In this document: positions 746-6,949 of the stretch, piece by piece | Layout: the number at the start of each line of letters is the position of its first letter | How positions within the stretch are numbered: the first letter of the stretch is position 1 | IMG/VR virus record: IMGVR_UViG_3300026224_000027 | Span: 1-13,555 of that record | Direction: 5' to 3' (one strand) | Origin: a virus | Lineage: Duplodnaviria; Heunggongvirae; Uroviricota; Caudoviricetes | DNA: 13,555 bases | Translations under genes and position numbers: made by a program | Notes under the pieces: model-generated | Told to the model about the DNA's origin: nothing | The model's database searches: none | Seen by the model: only the letters and a program-made list of their open reading frames with translations

Positions 746-1507
746 TCATGCTCCACTCGATTTCAGTAATCCGCGATAGTCGAGGGCCGCGACACCTGCA
801 TCTATGCGCACCTTCCAGGCGACGCCATCAACAGTAAAGCCCTCCTGCTCCTCAAGATATGGCGTATCAATACCATCAAGATAAGCGACCTCTATCGTGT
901 CCATACCCTTCGCCGCTGCCACATACCACTCCTTGTTATTGGCTTTATCAAGACGTGGCTCAACGATTACCTCCGCCATATCTTTCACCACGTTAATGAT
1001 GCCGGGGTTCTGATTGATAGTGCCCACGCCATCAACCGGAAAGAGTGATGACGATGACAGAATGGCGCGATGTGCGGCAGACTCCAGCGCGGCGGGGACC
1101 AGGACAAATGCAGGGGTAATATTCAGCGAATCGCCGTTAGCGTCTTCCTGGAGGCGCATCAGCTTACGGGCTTCGTTAAGCCCCTCCATGTCCATATCCT
1201 TCGCAATAAGATTTTTATGATCGGCATGGAATAACGCTTTACCATCCGTAAACTTGCCGTTGCTGGTTAACAGGAGATAAACCAGATTGCCAACTGTTCT
1301 GGCAGCTGCGCGTCCCATCGCCATGGGGATTGTAGTTAACTGGGTCAGGTCATCGTTGATAATGGCCTGACGGGTAACGGAAAATATATTCCCGTACGTG
1401 GCCAGCGCAATAGGTACACCTTTATCGCTGGTGGTGATGTATTTATATTCCGCACCTTCCGGTACTTTATCCAGCTTTGAAAAACATTCAGACCAACGCG
1501 CTTTGCT
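746..1507 (-). CDS. Major capsid protein, C-terminal portion (second reading frame of the protease-capsid fusion gene)
   Basis: Frame is open from the stop at 1508-1510 down to 746; reads ...ATYGNIFSVTRQAIINDDLTQLTTIPMAMGRAAART... with capsid-like character. Contiguous with but frame-shifted relative to the 1345..2658 ORF. Confidence 0.5.
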   Translation of the reverse strand, partial: SKARWSECFSKLDKVPEGAEYKYITTSDKGVPIALATYGNIFSVTRQAIINDDLTQLTTIPMAMGRAAARTVGNLVYLLLTSNGKFTDGKALFHADHKNLIAKDMDMEGLNEARKLMRLQEDANGDSLNITPAFVLVPAALESAAHRAILSSSSLFPVDGVGTINQNPGIINVVKDMAEVIVEPRLDKANNKEWYVAAAKGMDTIEVAYLDGIDTPYLEEQEGFTVDGVAWKVRIDAGVAALDYRGLLKSSGA

Positions 1508-2658
1508 TCATGAAAGTTTGAAAGCGAACCGGTACGCGTCCATTTCTGGAACGTTTCGCCGCTGTCCTGCCAGCCTTTCAGTACAGATTTTTCAGCCCCA
1601 CCAGCCAGAATATGAGAAAAATCACTGCTGCTGTGTGTAAAAGCCGCATTAACAACCTGCGAGCGATTAATAAAACCGCTCACAGTGATACCACGATCAA
1701 CCAGTGATGCCTGGGCCATTTCAAAAAGACTCATCATCGCGTAAGGGTTGCCTCGTTCAGGCCGTTCATACCCAAGACGGGAATAAAGCCCCTGACGAAT
1801 TGCATCACCTGTTATGTTTCCGTTTCCAGCATAGATATGAGGCGGGGTATTTTTATTGGATGGCGTGGACTCGCGCCCCAGCTCGTTCAACAGCTTTTCA
1901 CGGGCCATTTCCGGTGTACATGATGCATCTTCCAGACACGCCATTTTGATCCCGTCGTAACGACTGCCGAACAGGCTAAACACTTCACTTATTCCATTGA
2001 TGCGCTTCTGTTCATTACCAGCAATGTTTGCCGCTCCCTGTGGCGGTGTAATCATTCCTTTAATGGTTTCCGGCATATGTAAAAAATCTCCTGTGCGTTT
2101 CGATTCAATTCGCGCCATTGCTCTGACGGATGGCAACAATTCATCAGCAAAACCGTGCTTAAGGCATTCTTTCCCATCCATCCAGGTTTCATCCTCCAGC
2201 ATGGCGGTAATTTCCTGTGCTGATTTGCCCGTTTTTCTGGCATAAGCAGGGATTAACACGGTTTCCACCTTATCCAGCAAATCAGCATAATCACGCATAT
2301 CGCCAGCATTTCCGCCAGAGATCCCCCACGGTTTATGGATCATCATCATGGCGTTCTCCGGCATCACTACACGATCGCCAGCCATTGCGACCACCGAAGC
2401 CATTGAAGCCGCAACACCATCGATATAAACCGTAATGTCTGCCGGATGATTCCGTAGCAGGTTATAGATGGCGATGCCTTCAAACACATCACCACCTGGT
2501 GAATGGATCCTCAGATTGATATGTGAAACATCGCCAAGGGCTTTCAGGTCTTCCGCGAACTGCTTTGCAGTAACACCGAAGCCGCCAATCTCCTCATAGA
2601 TAGATATATCCGCCGCTCCGCGAACATCCGCCGCCTTAATGGTGTACCAGCGATTCAT
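1345..2658 (-). CDS. ClpP-family (S14) prohead protease domain fused to N-terminal part of major capsid protein; apparent frameshift near its 3' end
   Basis: N-terminal about 185 aa carry ClpP-like motifs: GVAASMAS (Ser), MIHKP (His), SPGGDV. The remainder is capsid-like. The last about 50 aa of this frame look non-native where the second frame (746..1507) is open. Confidence 0.65.
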   Translation of the reverse strand: MNRWYTIKAADVRGAADISIYEEIGGFGVTAKQFAEDLKALGDVSHINLRIHSPGGDVFEGIAIYNLLRNHPADITVYIDGVAASMASVVAMAGDRVVMPENAMMMIHKPWGISGGNAGDMRDYADLLDKVETVLIPAYARKTGKSAQEITAMLEDETWMDGKECLKHGFADELLPSVRAMARIESKRTGDFLHMPETIKGMITPPQGAANIAGNEQKRINGISEVFSLFGSRYDGIKMACLEDASCTPEMAREKLLNELGRESTPSNKNTPPHIYAGNGNITGDAIRQGLYSRLGYERPERGNPYAMMSLFEMAQASLVDRGITVSGFINRSQVVNAAFTHSSSDFSHILAGGAEKSVLKGWQDSGETFQKWTRTGSLSNFHEAKRVGLNVFQSWIKYRKVRNINTSPPAIKVYLLRWPRTGIYFPLPVRPLSTMT

Positions 2659-2864
2659 TGTTCCCCCACCGATGCAAAACCATTCTGATTAAGCCAGGTG
2701 TTTACGGCATGTCTGACAATCTGCGCCACACCTGGTAATGGTTGGTCAGGATGATGATTTATATGGTCGATCCTGTACTGCTTAAGGCGCATAACGGTCT
2801 GCGCATCCAGATGAACGGAACCACCTCTGGTATCACCTGTGTTCAGGTCATTAATACAACTCAC
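2655..2864 (-). CDS. Hypothetical small protein (69 aa), first gene of capsid operon
   Basis: GTG start preceded by GAGGAAG about 5 nt upstream; its TGA stop overlaps the ATG of the protease gene (ATGA), suggesting translational coupling. Confidence 0.35.
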   Translation of the reverse strand: MSCINDLNTGDTRGGSVHLDAQTVMRLKQYRIDHINHHPDQPLPGVAQIVRHAVNTWLNQNGFASVGEQ

Positions 2865-2965
2865 AGCAACTTCCTCTGACTGACTAAACTATGCACATTA
2901 TTGATCGATAAAAGTGGTAAATAAATATATTTCTATCATAAAAACAGATTAATTAGATTCAGACA

Positions 2966-2989
2966 CAAAAAAGCCGGATTTCTCCGGCT
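2966..2989 (-). terminator. Putative intrinsic terminator downstream of replication operon/ori
   Basis: Minus-strand hairpin AGCCGGA-(GAAA)-TCCGGCT followed by TTTTT (plus A-run 2967-2971). Confidence 0.4.
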
Positions 2990-3125
2990 TCTGTCACTCG
3001 TTGCTTAAAACGGTATGTTATCCCCGTACGGATCATCATTCCCCGCCTGTTGTTTTGGTGTGCTTCGCTGTCATAGGCTTTATCTCACAGCAGTAAATTA
3101 AAATTTTTGCGTTTTAACCCTTCAA

Positions 3126-3348
3126 CTGTTCACCTTTTGATATTTTCTCTTTTAATTCATAATGTTAAGGGGTGAACAGTTTCAAAAAAACTATTCACCA
3201 ACTGTTCACCACTGTTCACCCTTGAAGCTCAATAAACAATCAAAAAGGTGAACAGTGAATAGTTTGGTGAACAGTTCATAAATAACTGTTCACCCTATAA
3301 TATAATGATATAAAAGATATTTATGACAGGGTGAACAGTGGTGAACAG
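3126..3348. repeat. Iteron array: putative island replication origin
   Basis: At least 9 exact copies of the 9-mer GGTGAACAG / CTGTTCACC in both orientations (3126, 3171, 3202, 3212, 3247, 3266, 3286, 3330, 3340) plus degenerate copies (3191, 3254), with an AT-rich stretch 3297-3328. Lies immediately 3' of the primase/helicase gene. Confidence 0.7.
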
Positions 3349-3361
3349 TTATTCCATAAGT

Positions 3362-5194
3362 TTAATTTTTGCTATCGTCATTAGTGACCGATACACATGA
3401 TGGCATCCAGTCTTCTGATTCCTCCGTCAGTGTCACGTTTGAACGCAAACCGTGTTTCGTTTTCCGTTTCATATACTCCCTGCCATATTCCGCCATTGCC
3501 CCCGGCATATCTTTACCGAAGCGCGTCAGTGTTACAGGTTTACCAAACCCATGTGCCCTCATATAAGCCAGATAGGCATGATAGAGATACCTGCGTGGGC
3601 TGAATGGCACAATTTCAGCATTACCCACTAACAGGCCATCACACATTACCGACGCCATGAGATAGCCGCAGAAGTCCACCAGCGAATCCCCCTCTCGCTT
3701 TATCGCCAGTGCTTCTTCAGATTTCTGCTGCTCATATAACAGGCGTCTGGCTTCGTCCTGGTCAGCAAACCGTGTAAGCAGATGGCGAATCACTACCGCC
3801 AGCTCACCTTCTATTTTTTCCGCCAGCATTGGATCACGTTCGTTCTCCGGTACAACTTCCGAAAAATTGAATATCACCCGACGACGTGAGATCCCCCCGC
3901 TGCGGTCACTGAATGACATGGCGTTATTGTTAACCGCCAGCACTACTGCCGGAATACGCGTTGAGTAGGGGGCTTTGTGTTTCGGGTCAATTGCCACCTT
4001 GTCACCGCCTGTAATAGCCTTAATCCCTGCCCCATCACCAGCGTAGCGGGTCATATCCGGCATGATAATCAGCGAAAAGCCAACCACTAACGCGCGTTCC
4101 CTTGCATCTTCCAGCGCCTTCATGCTTGCCGATACTGTGTTGGCCTTACCCGCCAGCATGGTGCAAATCTCCGCCATCACGCTTTTACCACTTCCCCCTG
4201 GACCTGTTACCTCAATGAATAACTGCCAGTCGTACCGGTTCGCCAGCACCATGAATAATGCAGCCAGTACGCGATCCGCCTTGCGGTCATTCTCAGCCAC
4301 CGAACGGCGTAACCACTTCCAGAAATTCGGCGCATGTGTTGCCAGCGTTTCCCCCTCTGCTGGTGGGCTGAAAGGTAATTCACTGGCAATTAACAACCAG
4401 TCGTTTTTGTTATGCTCCCGAAAATTACCTGTTCTGGTATCAAATACCCCGTTACTGAATCCAATCAGGTTACGGGCTGTATTCCCCATTACAGGCAAAC
4501 TTAACTTCATGGTATCGACCGCCGATTTAATGGCGTTCTGCGAATAGCTGATCTCCGCATCAATGAAAATCTGTGCCATAGCTCGCTGTAATTCTTTATC
4601 CTGTACTGGCTCCCATACAACGCCGTTGTAATGGTGAACAGTGTCAGAGTCAGCATGAATCGCCAGTTCACCGCCATAATGTGCCAGGAGAACTTCGCCG
4701 CGTTGACTTGCTCCCATCTGGTTAAGCGCCAGTGATGAAGCGTTATCGTCTTTTACCCGCTCTTTTTTCTTTACAGGCAGTTCAACTACCTTTTTCTTTT
4801 CCGCCAGCTCTGCCCGTTCACGTTCCAGATATTCGTGCCAGTTCTCCCGTTTCTGGCTGTGCATTCCTTCAGGATAATAATCAGCATCCCTGACACCTGC
4901 CGCTGCCAGTTTCTGCCCGATGGTATTAACAAGCACCGGACGCAATAACCCCGCCTGATAGAGACGCACGCGATAGCGTCCGTCCGGTACGATTTGCAGG
5001 TTGTCCAGTTCGGCAAGTTGTTGCTCTCCAAGCCAGACAGGTGGCACGTTATCGCCTGCCAGTCGCCCGTCCTGTTCCTGCCACTGCTTCGCATGTGCCC
5101 ACGCATCACTACCCGCAAAAATGATGACTTCCGTCATTTTGTCACGCGGCTGGTGTTTTAAATTTGGCGCTTTTTTCATTTCTGCTCTCTCCAC
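3362..5194 (-). CDS. Replication initiator: phage/plasmid primase-helicase, P4/D5 family (Walker A NTPase)
   Basis: 610 aa; Walker A motif GPGGSGKS and a downstream hydrophobic beta-strand (LVVGFSLIIMPD) typical of the P4-alpha C-terminal NTPase family. Alternative start at the ATG 5179 forms an ATGA overlap with the upstream 99-aa gene. Confidence 0.7.
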   Translation of the reverse strand: MERAEMKKAPNLKHQPRDKMTEVIIFAGSDAWAHAKQWQEQDGRLAGDNVPPVWLGEQQLAELDNLQIVPDGRYRVRLYQAGLLRPVLVNTIGQKLAAAGVRDADYYPEGMHSQKRENWHEYLERERAELAEKKKVVELPVKKKERVKDDNASSLALNQMGASQRGEVLLAHYGGELAIHADSDTVHHYNGVVWEPVQDKELQRAMAQIFIDAEISYSQNAIKSAVDTMKLSLPVMGNTARNLIGFSNGVFDTRTGNFREHNKNDWLLIASELPFSPPAEGETLATHAPNFWKWLRRSVAENDRKADRVLAALFMVLANRYDWQLFIEVTGPGGSGKSVMAEICTMLAGKANTVSASMKALEDARERALVVGFSLIIMPDMTRYAGDGAGIKAITGGDKVAIDPKHKAPYSTRIPAVVLAVNNNAMSFSDRSGGISRRRVIFNFSEVVPENERDPMLAEKIEGELAVVIRHLLTRFADQDEARRLLYEQQKSEEALAIKREGDSLVDFCGYLMASVMCDGLLVGNAEIVPFSPRRYLYHAYLAYMRAHGFGKPVTLTRFGKDMPGAMAEYGREYMKRKTKHGLRSNVTLTEESEDWMPSCVSVTNDDSKN

Positions 5195-5481: not shown

Positions 5482-5802
5482 TTATCCCCGATTTGAATCA
5501 GTATTCGCTTTCTTTATGGCATTTAATGCATCTGCGGCATTTTCAATGGTGCACCGTAACGAAATATCAAACTGCCCAAGCATTGCCAGTAACAAACCGA
5601 TATTACCCATATCAATGCGCATAGCCTTTTCGTCATAGTCCTCATTTTCTGACGCATGCCACATCAGGCTACCAATTGACGCAATACCCATTGATATATT
5701 GTCAGTAGCCCCATCCGCAGCGGAATAAACCTTTTTAGCAATATCATGCTCACAGTTAAAATGCGGATTAATCAGGTACTGGTAATTTGACATATCAGGC
5801 AT
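5482..5802 (-). CDS. Hypothetical protein (106 aa)
   Basis: Start ATG (5802) lies 2 nt before the TGA of the upstream 67-aa gene; 6-nt gap to the next gene. No recognisable motif. Confidence 0.45.
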   Translation of the reverse strand: MPDMSNYQYLINPHFNCEHDIAKKVYSAADGATDNISMGIASIGSLMWHASENEDYDEKAMRIDMGNIGLLLAMLGQFDISLRCTIENAADALNAIKKANTDSNRG

Positions 5803-5998
5803 GGCACACCCCCTGACGAATACGGGCGGCGAATATCATCACGCAGCCAGCCGGGGATTGCTGGCGTGCTTCCTGTTCGCTGGTGGCCACGATGTGAATC
5901 ACGCGCGGTTGTGCCGTGCTCAGGGCGATAAAACGCCAGATGAATTTATTCAGGTTGTGCGAGTCCCGCCCTTGCGGGTGTGTGGTATGATTTAACAT
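5795..5998 (-). CDS. Hypothetical small protein (67 aa), first gene of leftward operon
   Basis: Internal Met of the 306-aa track ORF (MLNHTTHPQ...), with GAGGT about 6 nt upstream. The longer ORF upstream of this Met runs through promoter, operator and terminator elements and is judged spurious. Confidence 0.4.
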   Translation of the reverse strand: MLNHTTHPQGRDSHNLNKFIWRFIALSTAQPRVIHIVATSEQEARQQSPAGCVMIFAARIRQGVCHA

Positions 5999-6094
5999 AG
6001 CTACCTCGATACTTCTGCTATCGTTGGTGGTTAGAAGCCCGGTTAGTGTTAGCGCACTGCCGGGTTTCGTCGTTTCTGCACCTTGCATCAACAA

Positions 6095-6170
6095 GGTGTT
6101 AAACACCAATTTAAGCCTAGGTGTTAAACACGTCAAGTGTTGAACACTTATTTTTTTTCCTGCATACTGC
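6095..6170. promoter_or_regulatory. Divergent promoter region with three 13-bp palindromic operators
   Basis: Operators GGTGTT-A-AACACC (6095-6107), GGTGTT-A-AACAC (6120-6131), AGTGTT-G-AACACT (6136-6148). Rightward promoter: -35 TTGAAC (6141-6146), 17-bp spacer, -10 CATACT (6164-6169). Leftward promoter on minus strand: -35 TTGACG (6136..6131), 17-bp spacer, -10 TAAATT (6113..6108). Confidence 0.45.
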
Positions 6171-6197
6171 ATTTGTTTTTTGTAAGGAGTACACAAC

Positions 6198-6377
6198 ATG
6201 GCGACAAAAGCAGTAAACGCAAAATCACAAACAGTTGCGGCAAGGGTTCCGCATGAAGTTATGAACAATGTTGAGGCGGTAAAAATGCCTGGTGAAAGTA
6301 CAGGGCAGTTTGTAACAGCAGCATTAAAGCGAGAAGTTGAATACCGCCAGCGTCGCAAGGCCAAAGAGCAGGAGTAA
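6198..6377 (+). CDS. Small ribbon-helix-helix-like DNA-binding protein (59 aa), putative island regulator; absent from ORF track
   Basis: AAGGAG 8 nt upstream of the ATG. Sequence MATKAVNAKSQTVAARVPHEVMNNVEAVKMPGESTGQFVTAALKREVEYRQRRKAKEQE shows a strand-helix-turn-helix pattern reminiscent of Arc/CopG RHH proteins. Sits directly beside the operator cluster. Confidence 0.45.
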   Translation: MATKAVNAKSQTVAARVPHEVMNNVEAVKMPGESTGQFVTAALKREVEYRQRRKAKEQE

Positions 6378-6434
6378 CCATCACCAGCGCCGTGGTGCGG
6401 TGAACTGTGGCGCACAGGGTTACAGGTATCTACG

Positions 6435-6614
6435 ATGACTGACAAATCATTAAAGAAATTATCCTCATCCAAGAAAAAACAACGCAAAAATGCGGTAAAC
6501 GAACATGAACCGGAGAGATTCGCACCATGTGCGTTTATCCTTGAGAAGTACCTTAAAGAGTATTCTAGGAAAATACGCTCATTGCAGGCATGGCAGCGAA
6601 TCGAGCCAGACTGA
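6435..6614 (+). CDS. Hypothetical basic small protein (59 aa); absent from ORF track
   Basis: ATG-initiated ORF (MTDKSLKKLSSSKKKQRKNAVNEHEPERF...) downstream of the RHH gene and followed by a strong terminator; RBS weak. Confidence 0.3.
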   Translation: MTDKSLKKLSSSKKKQRKNAVNEHEPERFAPCAFILEKYLKEYSRKIRSLQAWQRIEPD

Positions 6615-6678
6615 TAGCATTGCCCACTAGCCGACAACCTGGTATTCTGGATATGCTCAAGTTTAGTGTTATGCCACT

Positions 6679-6706
6679 GGCGACCGCCCCCGGTCGCCTT
6701 TGTTTT
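6679..6706 (+). terminator. Rho-independent terminator ending the rightward small-ORF transcript
   Basis: GGCGACCG-(CCCC)-CGGTCGCC 8-bp GC stem followed by TTTGTTTT; lies between convergent ORF 6435..6614 and alpA. Confidence 0.6.
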
Positions 6707-6724
6707 ATGTGTCATAGCTCCCCC

Positions 6725-6949
6725 CTAGGCTGCCTTACCTGAATTAACGCGGTCACGGCTTTGCACCCAGTCCATAACTTCGGAAAGCAACCAGCCTACA
6801 GAACGCCCCCCAAGATTACGGCGAGACGGAAAGCCCCCTTTCTTCTCCAGTTCGTAGCGTGTAGTACGGCTGACGCCTGTTAACTTACGACATTCATCCT
6901 CACGAATTACGCGATCTGTTAGTGATTGAAATTGTGTATTTTGATTCAT
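6725..6949 (-). CDS. alpA: AlpA-family transcriptional regulator (excisionase-like HTH)
   Basis: 74 aa; C-terminal segment LGGRSVGWLLSEVMDWVQSR resembles the AlpA conserved region (GxxSVGWxExEIxxWxxxR); positioned downstream of int in the same orientation, as in P4-like elements and Gram-negative PICIs. Confidence 0.75.
   Translation of the reverse strand: MNQNTQFQSLTDRVIREDECRKLTGVSRTTRYELEKKGGFPSRRNLGGRSVGWLLSEVMDWVQSRDRVNSGKAA

What the first reader, a model, noticed from the sequence alone, without database searches (positions are those of the whole stretch)
3126..3348. Dense bidirectional 9-bp iteron array marks the island origin
GGTGAACAG occurs at least nine times exactly, in both orientations, with pairs in tandem (3202/3212, 3330/3340) and an AT-rich unwinding-like stretch between clusters. 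It lies immediately 3' of the primase-helicase gene, the usual place for a cognate origin. An iteron-like variant GGTGAACTG also occurs near 6400 between the two small plus-strand ORFs.
Basis: seen in the sequence. Interest (0 to 1): 0.45.

Follow-up and report, generated by a model that had tools for sequence, protein, structure and literature searches.

The report
Satellite island replication origin, P4-type iterons
The repeat cluster is real and is almost certainly the replication origin of a small phage-parasitic island (a PICI) in an E. coli-like chromosome; it is built from the same 8-base protein-binding sites as the origin of satellite phage P4, so it is a well-supported but already known kind of feature.

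Summary
GGTGAACAG occurs 9 times exactly in 3126-3348, against 0.07 expected in the whole window. The array also holds two variants, one degenerate copy and two roughly 35-bp spacers of 17-19% GC. It ends 13 nt after the stop codon of the rep gene.

The core TGTTCACC is the annotated "ori type 1 repeat" of phage P4. The array is two P4-ori1-like modules in inverted orientation. Rep is 51% identical to the helicase and origin-binding domains of P4 alpha, and its C-terminus matches PDB 1KA8.

In relatives the architecture is kept while all iterons switch together (GTAGACA, GYGGACA, GTAGAGA, ATGAACA). Each switch coincides with changes in the inferred wing of Rep's winged-helix domain.

The island carries the att site of the catalogued PICI EcCI224. 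The experimentally tested origin of EcCICFT073 has the same layout behind a 49%-identical Rep.

The origin reading is therefore supported, and the kind is already known. The GGTGAACTG near 6400 and the tenth copy at 4633 are coincidences. "Primase" is a name only, because Rep lacks P4 alpha's primase domain.

The parts
3126..3348 (.). Whole iteron array: 9 exact ACTGTTCACC/GGTGAACAGT copies plus 2 variants, arranged as two inverted modules
3116..3220 (+). Distal module, read on the + strand. It runs: degenerate copy 3116-3124, iteron 3126-3134, AT-rich spacer, inverted iteron 3171-3179, then a triple (variant 3190-3198, 3202-3210, 3212-3220). Start-to-start spacing is 10, 44, 21, 11, 10, against 10, 43, 22, 11, 10 in P4 ori1
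3135..3170 (.). AT-rich spacer 1 (36 bp, 19% GC), bracketed by convergent iterons; candidate unwinding element. Closely resembles the P4 crr spacer (TTCTCTTTTAATT)
3221..3246 (.). Central 26-bp linker between the two modules (27% GC)
3247..3348 (-). Proximal module, read on the minus strand. It runs: pair 3340-3348 and 3330-3338, AT-rich spacer, inverted iteron 3286-3294, then a triple (3266-3274, variant at about 3255-3263, 3247-3255)
3295..3329 (.). AT-rich spacer 2 (35 bp, 17% GC); candidate unwinding element
3095..3115 (.). Outer A/T-tract flank (AAATTAAAATTTTTGC...). AATTTTTGC recurs at 3364-3372 on the other outer flank. Comparable A/T tracts flank the arrays of relatives and the P4 crr units
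   Evidence: read from the sequences
3362..5179 (-). rep gene: D5_N / DUF5906 SF3 helicase plus a P4-alpha-type C-terminal origin-binding domain. The ORF as listed starts at GTG 5194; annotated homologues start at the ATG at 5179
3401..3691 (-). [quoted passage not shown]
3428..3475 (-). Codons for the inferred wing hairpin (aa 574-589, YMKRKTKHGLRSNVTL), the segment that changes whenever the iteron sequence changes in relatives
2969..2992 (-). Intrinsic-terminator-like hairpin plus T-run on the rep strand, downstream of the array. By this placement the array would be transcribed as the 3' end of the rep transcript
9313..9326 (-). att core AGAAATACCCGTAT of PICI EcCI224, next to the integrase gene (7904-9124); marks the island end

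Best explanation
The array is the vegetative replication origin of a phage-inducible chromosomal island (PICI) of the EcCI224 type.

Proposed mechanism:
1. After the helper phage induces the island and the alpA-to-rep operon is expressed, Rep binds the 10-bp iterons (core TGTTCACC) through its C-terminal winged-helix domain. Specificity appears to be read by the wing hairpin.
2. Tandem sites 10-11 bp apart put Rep molecules on one face of the DNA. In each module a pair of sites and an oppositely oriented site bracket a 35-36-bp spacer of 17-19% GC, which is the likely melting site.
3. The SF3 helicase domain of Rep then assembles on the opened DNA.
4. Because the two modules are inverted copies of one another, they could load two helicases in opposite directions and so give bidirectional replication.
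5. No DnaA boxes are present, as expected for a P4-alpha-type, self-sufficient initiator. Who makes the primers is open, because Rep lacks alpha's Toprim primase domain.

Shown here: the repeats and their enrichment; their layout; homology of sites and of the binding domain to P4; co-variation of sites and domain; and equivalence to a tested PICI origin.

Inferred: binding itself, melting at the spacers, bidirectional helicase loading, and read-through transcription.
For: - Enrichment is 9 copies in 223 bp against 0.07 expected per window.
- The core equals P4's annotated 'ori type 1 repeat', and BLAST aligns the array to P4 ori.
- Alignment A1 shows a shared module in both window halves, in P4 ori1, in both P4 crr units and in vB_KppS-Ant: 2 iterons, about 35 nt of AT-rich spacer, 1 inverted iteron, then further iterons (3 direct in the window halves and P4 ori1).
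- Rep aa 150-600 is 51% identical to P4 alpha aa 320-771, and aa 502-598 hits the solved alpha origin-binding domain 1KA8 at E 1.8e-24.
- In 13 relatives examined, iterons occur only in the array, always just after the rep stop codon and with the same orientation pattern.
- At least five other iteron sequences occupy the same positions, and each goes with a different wing sequence, while the helicase (about 90% identical) and the putative recognition helix stay the same.
- In L134, whose Rep is 95% identical, nearly every iteron reads CTGTTCATT instead of CTGTTCACC. Within the matched DNA-binding domain Rep differs only at A514S, V529L, E592D and the wing residues 577, 578, 580, 581 and 583.
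- The EcCICFT073 Rep is 49% identical and its downstream region has the same layout. In that element rep plus ori sustained plasmid replication, and deleting either reduced it (PMC6092414).
- The island shares att site and location with the catalogued PICI EcCI224.
Against: - Nothing has been measured for this element: no binding, melting or replication data.
- In P4, an iteron cluster in this same position (crr, just 3' of alpha) is a cis-acting helper rather than the start site, so position alone does not prove that initiation happens here.
- In the EcCICFT073 experiment, deleting ori reduced colonies but did not abolish them.
- The assignment of the co-varying segment to the wing rests on the usual winged-helix topology and on the pRN1 paper's description of 1KA8. 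My own single-sequence model of the domain failed (pLDDT 38).
Confidence: 0.87

Rival explanations
1. The array is a crr-like cis-acting enhancer only, as in P4, where Rep bound here assists initiation at a separate origin elsewhere in the island.
For: The array sits exactly where P4's crr sits, directly 3' of the alpha homologue, and its distal spacer closely resembles the crr spacer.
Against: No second iteron cluster exists in the window or in the complete homologous island plus flanks (L003, 32 kb), nor within 3 kb of rep in 13 relatives. The single copy inside rep at 4633 is made by Thr-Val-His codons, varies at the third codon position, and did not switch in L134. Each half of the array has the layout of P4 ori1 rather than of a crr unit. 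In EcCICFT073 the rep-plus-downstream fragment was sufficient.
Confidence: 0.06
2. The array is mainly a regulatory Rep-binding site, for copy-number control by handcuffing or for control of the downstream capsid/packaging operon, and not the site where replication starts.
For: It lies between rep and the capsid-protease/terS operon, and iteron arrays in plasmids do double duty in copy control. P4's ori1 also lies in a promoter-rich intergenic region.
Against: No sigma-70-like promoter was found in 2600-3500. A terminator separates the array from the downstream genes. The architecture with AT-rich spacers matches tested origins. A secondary regulatory role is not excluded.
Confidence: 0.05
3. 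The array is a packaging signal (pac/cos-like site) recognised by the island's small-terminase-like protein.
For: The island encodes a TerS-like protein (3-545, phrog_141) and capsid genes just downstream.
Against: The repeats co-vary with Rep's DNA-binding domain. They are the same as P4's alpha-binding origin repeats. They stay attached to rep in elements with quite different packaging modules: P4, EcCICFT073 and vB_KppS-Ant.
Confidence: 0.01
4. The repeats are a chance or low-complexity artefact.
For: None.
Against: Ten matches against 0.07 expected, with 0 of 200 shuffles reaching that number. The array is conserved at 90% identity or more in 594 of 5426 complete E. coli genomes.
Confidence: 0

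Closest known systems
Replication origins of Gram-negative PICIs (Fillol-Salom et al. 2018, ISME J, PMC6092414), tested for EcCICFT073
   Same: Both lie immediately 3' of the rep gene and have sets of iterons flanking AT-rich DNA. The island gene order is the same (int, alpA, Icd-like, DUF4222, rep, ori, capsid and packaging genes). Rep is 49% identical over its full length, and the orientation pattern of sites is identical. The island itself corresponds to the listed PICI EcCI224.
   Different: The iteron sequence differs: GGTGAACAG here, GGTAGACA/GGTAGATA in EcCICFT073. The second spacer is AT-rich here but GC-richer in EcCICFT073. This copy has not been tested.
Satellite phage P4 ori1 and crr, with the alpha protein
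   Same: The octamer TGTTCACC is the same. The module is the same (pair, about 35-nt AT-rich spacer, inverted site, triple) with almost identical spacing. The SF3 helicase and winged-helix origin-binding domains are homologous (51% identity; 1KA8). The array occupies the position of crr, just 3' of the gene.
   Different: There is one composite array of two inverted modules, instead of ori1 and crr 4.5-5 kb apart. P4 type 2 repeats are absent. There is no terminator between gene and array. Rep lacks alpha's N-terminal Toprim primase domain. The island has no sid/psu/delta genes.
Origins of SF3-helicase initiators of eukaryotic DNA viruses (SV40 large T antigen, papillomavirus E1); comparison from general knowledge
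   Same: Both have short binding sites in inverted arrangement next to AT-rich DNA, bound by a dedicated DNA-binding domain attached to an SF3 helicase. In those viruses the arrangement directs assembly of two helicase rings in opposite directions.
   Different: The resemblance is only an analogy for the proposed bidirectional loading. The binding domains are unrelated and nothing of this was tested here.
Iteron plasmids (pSC101, RK2, F, R6K)
   Same: Repeated initiator-binding sites lie next to an AT-rich unwinding element.
   Different: Plasmid iterons are 17-22 bp direct repeats bound by RepA/pi-type proteins that need DnaA and DnaB. Here the sites are 9-10 bp, occur in both orientations, there are no DnaA boxes, and the initiator carries its own helicase.

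Membership tests
Gram-negative PICI origin (Fillol-Salom 2018) | Lies immediately 3' of the replication initiator gene | tested here: met
   Last iteron ends at 3348 and the rep stop codon is at 3362-3364
Gram-negative PICI origin (Fillol-Salom 2018) | [quoted passage not shown] | tested here: met
   Two such units; spacers 3135-3170 and 3295-3329 at 17-19% GC
Gram-negative PICI origin (Fillol-Salom 2018) | Host element is a PICI: integrase, AlpA regulator, rep, capsid-related gene, small terminase, own att site | tested here: met
   Pfam/PHROG hits. The att core of EcCI224 is at 9313-9326. The window matches the CP018948 island at 95.5%. The left island end lies outside the window
Gram-negative PICI origin (Fillol-Salom 2018) | Homology to an experimentally validated member | tested here: met
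   EcCICFT073 Rep is 49% identical and has the same site layout downstream
Gram-negative PICI origin (Fillol-Salom 2018) | Rep-dependent autonomous replication of a rep-ori fragment | not testable with these tools
   Shown only for EcCICFT073 in the paper
Phage P4 alpha / ori1-crr replicon | Type 1 iteron TGTTCACC in clusters | tested here: met
Phage P4 alpha / ori1-crr replicon | Initiator with alpha-type C-terminal winged-helix origin-binding domain | tested here: met
   1KA8 hit, E 1.8e-24, aa 502-598
Phage P4 alpha / ori1-crr replicon | SF3 (D5-like) helicase domain | tested here: met
   D5_N and DUF5906 hits; 51% identity to alpha aa 320-771
Phage P4 alpha / ori1-crr replicon | N-terminal DnaG-type (Toprim) primase domain in the initiator | tested here: not met
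   [not shown]
Phage P4 alpha / ori1-crr replicon | Two separate cis elements (ori1 and crr) several kb apart | tested here: not met
   A single array; no other cluster in the window or the whole island
Phage P4 alpha / ori1-crr replicon | Type 2 repeats beside the type 1 repeats in ori1 | tested here: not met
   No cluster of GCTTTAAGTG-like sites
Phage P4 alpha / ori1-crr replicon | P4 hijacking genes sid, psu and delta in the element | tested here: not met
   Absent from the window and from the annotated homologous island
DnaA-dependent iteron plasmid origin | DnaA boxes and 17-22-bp direct repeats | tested here: not met
   No DnaA box in 2990-3400. Sites are 9-10 bp and occur in both orientations

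The most novel reading that the evidence does not exclude
The PICI origin is a head-to-head duplication of the P4 ori1 module that merges P4's split ori1 and crr functions into one 280-bp element. Its specificity is set by a few wing residues of Rep, so satellites fall into iteron specificity classes. This island belongs to the same class as P4. Its Rep and P4 alpha could therefore fire or titrate each other's origins when both satellites share a cell. P4-like elements are reported in almost half of E. coli genomes, and this array is in 11% of complete genomes. The repeated concerted switches of all iterons together with the wing (for example L134) would then be escapes from such cross-talk.
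Probability: 0.2. Interest if true: 0.5.

Novelty: already known. Interest (0 to 1): 0.2.

Why it matters
This finding mainly gives a correct annotation. A 280-bp origin present in about one in nine complete E. coli genomes carries no rep_origin feature under any listed match.

Two points go a little beyond the literature I could read. First, the PICI origin is homologous, site by site, to the P4 origin. The 2018 paper describes the layout as shared by no other known replicon, and a 2019 paper calls the satellite families phylogenetically unrelated. Second, natural variants pinpoint a handful of Rep residues that appear to set iteron specificity, which makes specificity swaps and cross-talk between co-resident satellites directly testable.

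Tried and rejected
- The tenth exact copy at 4633 as an analogue of P4's ori2 inside the alpha gene: rejected. It is formed by Thr-Val-His codons (ACT GTT CAC C), the T varies synonymously in relatives, and it stayed CACC in L134 where the array iterons switched. Relatives with TGTTCACC arrays have no copy inside rep.
- GGTGAACTG at about 6399 as an extra Rep site: rejected. The surrounding 61 nt have no counterpart in L134 or the more distant relatives, and the site itself is replaced in L135 and L146. About 11 one-mismatch hits per window are expected by chance.
- The TGTTCACC at 9525 lies in the host gene rcnR and is chance.
- DnaA boxes and P4 type 2 repeats in the array: none.
- Sigma-70-like promoters in 2600-3500: none.
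- Rfam and tRNA scans of the window: nothing.
- Single-sequence AlphaFold model of the DNA-binding domain: unusable (pLDDT 38). The wing assignment therefore rests on homology to 1KA8.
- Full-text search for the bare octamer returned only unrelated primer sequences.
- The classical P4 replication papers are not held. Statements about alpha binding type 1 repeats, crr being required in cis, and P4's independence from DnaA rest on my own knowledge plus the GenBank annotation of X51522.
- A profile comparison of Rep's N-terminal domain with alpha-type primase N-termini was negative, and Foldseek against the PDB gave nothing significant.

Full report
**1. The observation.**
GGTGAACAG occurs exactly at 3126, 3202, 3212 and 3286 on the minus strand, and at 3171, 3247, 3266, 3330 and 3340 on the plus strand. 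A tenth copy sits at 4633. The dinucleotide-preserving expectation for the whole window is 0.07, and none of 200 shuffles reached 10. All nine array copies extend to ACTGTTCACC. The array also holds two variants (CTATTCACC at 3190-3198 and GTGAATAG at about 3255-3263) and one degenerate copy at 3116-3124. Tandem copies are 10-11 bp apart. Two spacers, 3135-3170 and 3295-3329, have 19% and 17% GC against 46% for the window. The 610-codon ORF 3362-5194 on the minus strand ends 13 nt from the last iteron.

**2. The setting.**
The window is an E. coli-type chromosome segment carrying a roughly 10-kb island between rcnR and thiM. Read along the minus strand, the island holds:
- an integrase gene (7904-9124);
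- a DUF6387 gene;
- an AlpA-type regulator (6725-6949);
- an Icd-like gene (5795-5998);
- a DUF4222 gene;
- rep;
- the array;
- a terminator-like hairpin (2992 to 2969);
- a small conserved gene (2655-2864);
- a ClpP-like protease/major capsid fusion gene;
- a small-terminase-like gene (3-545).

This is the five-component make-up used to define PICIs (PMC10085698). Table S1 of Fillol-Salom et al. 2018 lists EcCI224 (CP018948.1 1961620-1972242, 10.6 kb, att AGAAATACCCGTAT, frmR-thiM). That genome region matches the window at 95.5%, and the att core is at 9313-9326.

**3. The repeats are P4 origin repeats.**
A sensitive BLAST of 2900-3600 against phage records hit the P4 origin, under features annotated "ori type 1 repeat". 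In X51522 those repeats are TGTTCACC. Six lie in ori (9310-9413) and five in each of the two 120-bp units of crr, the "cis required region for replication" that lies directly 3' of the alpha gene.

Aligning the two halves of the window array (the left half on the + strand, the right half on the minus strand) with P4 ori1, both crr units and the two halves of the array in the 16.5-kb element vB_KppS-Ant gives one shared module. It consists of two tandem iterons, about 35 nt of AT-rich spacer, one inverted iteron, and then further iterons (three direct ones in the window halves and P4 ori1). Start-to-start spacings in the left half are 10, 44, 21, 11 and 10, against 10, 43, 22, 11 and 10 in P4 ori1.

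The window array is therefore two ori1-like modules in inverted orientation. The triples face each other across a 26-bp centre, and the pair-plus-spacer ends point outwards. Outside each pair lies an A/T tract; AATTTTTGC recurs at 3102-3110 and 3364-3372. Similar tracts flank P4 crr units and the arrays of relatives.

**4. The protein next door.**
Rep has D5_N, DUF5906 and Pox_D5 domains. Residues 150-600 are 51% identical to P4 alpha residues 320-771, which form the helicase and origin-binding parts. Residues 502-598 match the solved alpha origin-binding domain 1KA8 at E 1.8e-24. That domain is described as a winged helix in PMC2777425.

That alpha binds type 1 repeats in ori and crr through this domain is established P4 knowledge, which I cite from memory (Ziegelin et al. 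1993, 1995; Yeo et al. 2002). The papers are not held, and only the title of the first is visible.

**5. Comparative test of the claim that the sites are cognate to Rep.**
Scans of genome and viral collections gave 152 loci with Rep relatives.

- *Location.* In 13 relatives examined, the iteron core occurs only in the 420 bp after the rep stop codon and nowhere else within about 3 kb on either side. The complete homologous island plus flanks (32 kb) has no second cluster.
- *Layout.* The order and orientation of sites is conserved: pair, spacer, inverted site and triple, then the mirror image.
- *Sequence classes.* The sequence of the sites is not conserved:

| Iteron core | Where found |
|---|---|
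| GTGAACA | the window, Klebsiella/Raoultella/Kluyvera elements and P4 |
| GTAGACA | Escherichia ruysiae, Kluyvera georgiana, Enterobacter hormaechei and EcCICFT073 |
| GYGGACA | Serratia |
| GTAGAGA | Symbiopectobacterium |
| GTGCACA mixed with GTGAACA | Proteus |

- *Match to the protein.* Each class goes with its own version of one protein segment, which I infer to be the wing hairpin. It reads KR(K/H)TK(H/Q/N)G(I/L)(R/Q)(S/T)N in nearly all TGTTCACC users, even though their domains are only 49-84% identical. In the GTAGACA class found behind window-type helicases and in the GYGGACA class it is altered and carries a five-residue insertion; other classes have different wing sequences without the insertion. 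Meanwhile the helicase stays about 90% identical in the closest of these relatives, and the preceding helix is nearly unchanged.
- *The sharpest case.* In L134, Rep is 95% identical and nearly every iteron reads CTGTTCATT instead of CTGTTCACC. Within the matched DNA-binding domain the only differences are A514S, V529L, E592D and the wing changes R577K, K578R, K580T, H581A and L583V.

A concerted change of about ten sites together with a few residues of the adjacent protein is what selection on a specific protein-DNA contact predicts. It is hard to explain in any other way.

**6. Link to experiment.**
In CFT073, the PICI EcCICFT073 has the same gene order. Its Rep is 49% identical over the full length, including the N-terminal domain. 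A 288-bp region follows the gene with the same arrangement of CTGTCTACC/GGTAGA(C/T)A sites.

Fillol-Salom et al. cloned that rep plus the putative ori into a thermosensitive plasmid. They obtained colonies at the restrictive temperature only with intact rep, and significantly fewer without ori.

**7. Mechanism and what remains inferred.**
I take the array to be the origin. Rep would bind the iterons and the AT-rich spacers would melt. The SF3 helicase would then load, and the mirror symmetry would allow loading in both directions.

No DnaA boxes are present in the array region. No promoter-like site was found, and the only terminator on the rep strand lies beyond the array. The array should therefore be transcribed with rep, which might help opening.

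The alternative that this is only a crr-like helper has the position in its favour. It lacks any second cluster to act on. A purely regulatory role or a packaging role fits the co-variation and the homology poorly.

**8. Sites outside the array.**
The copy at 4633 is made by codons for Thr-Val-His. Its first T is a variable third position, and it did not follow the iteron switch in L134. The GGTGAACTG at 6399 lies in DNA that is not conserved even among close relatives. The TGTTCACC at 9525 is inside rcnR. None of these sites is supported as functional.

**9. The "primase".**
Rep lacks alpha's first 320 residues. Its own N-terminal 135 residues have no Pfam match.

A helicase 90% identical to the window's occurs in Enterobacter hormaechei fused to a true alpha-like primase domain. 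The short domain also occurs in front of RepA-type helicases. Whether this Rep primes is therefore open.

**10. Verdict.**
The finding is real, correctly located and correctly interpreted. It belongs to a kind that is already described and tested in a homologue. The array, at 90% identity or more, is present in 594 of 5426 complete E. coli genomes, up to six times per genome, and none of the listed matches carries an origin annotation.

The modest additions made here are the site-by-site homology to P4 ori1/crr and the identification of the residues that track iteron specificity.

Noticed in passing
window 746-2658 (minus strand), near 1486: The ClpP-like protease/major capsid fusion gene is split into two ORFs (1345-2658 and 746-1324). 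The cause is a 1-nt deletion in a G run relative to the intact 1914-nt gene of E. coli GN02100, which is 99.6% identical. It is either a pseudogene or a sequencing error.
   Followed up: yes
[not shown]
   Followed up: partly
L013 (Enterobacter hormaechei CP169086.1), rep on the + strand ending at 4503; proteins P0021, P0022, P0032, P0084: N-terminal modules are exchanged. A helicase and binding domain about 90% identical to the window's is fused to an alpha-like Toprim primase domain in L013. The window-type short N-domain also occurs in front of RepA/AAA_25 helicases.
   Followed up: partly
L134 (IMGVR_UViG_2784132061_000002) 4694-5000: This is a natural specificity switch. Nearly all iterons read CTGTTCATT instead of CTGTTCACC, and Rep (95% identical) differs in the wing at residues 577, 578, 580, 581 and 583.
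   Followed up: yes
window 2865-3125 versus L003 11660-12880: The stretch between the array and the capsid operon is variable. E. coli GN02100 carries two extra plus-strand ORFs here (129 and 714 nt) that the window lacks, which suggests an accessory-gene insertion spot next to the origin.
   Followed up: no
window 2969-2992 (minus strand): The only terminator-like hairpin on the rep strand lies after the array. P4 instead has its alpha terminator between the gene and crr.
   Followed up: partly
window 3102-3110 and 3364-3372: AATTTTTGC, within A/T tracts, recurs on both outer flanks of the array; the proximal copy begins within the rep stop codon. Comparable A/T tracts flank P4 crr units and the arrays of relatives, so the functional origin probably spans about 3095-3375.
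   Followed up: partly
window 5795-6715 (minus strand): The 306-codon ORF in the mechanical list is probably not a gene. Only its last 67 codons (5795-5998) match an Icd-like/repressor family and are annotated in relatives. A YlcI/YnfO-family gene lies on the opposite strand at 6198-6377.
   Followed up: partly
E. coli genome collection: The 271-bp array region is present at 90% identity or more in 594 of 5426 complete E. coli genomes, up to 6 places in one genome, with 2 places on plasmids. The features listed under the matches never include an origin.
   Followed up: no
proteins P0003, P0004, P0088, P0096: Some database proteins join the Rep N-terminal domain directly to a single-stranded-DNA-binding protein domain. 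These are probably deletion derivatives of islands that, like EcCICFT073, carry ssb downstream of the origin.
   Followed up: no
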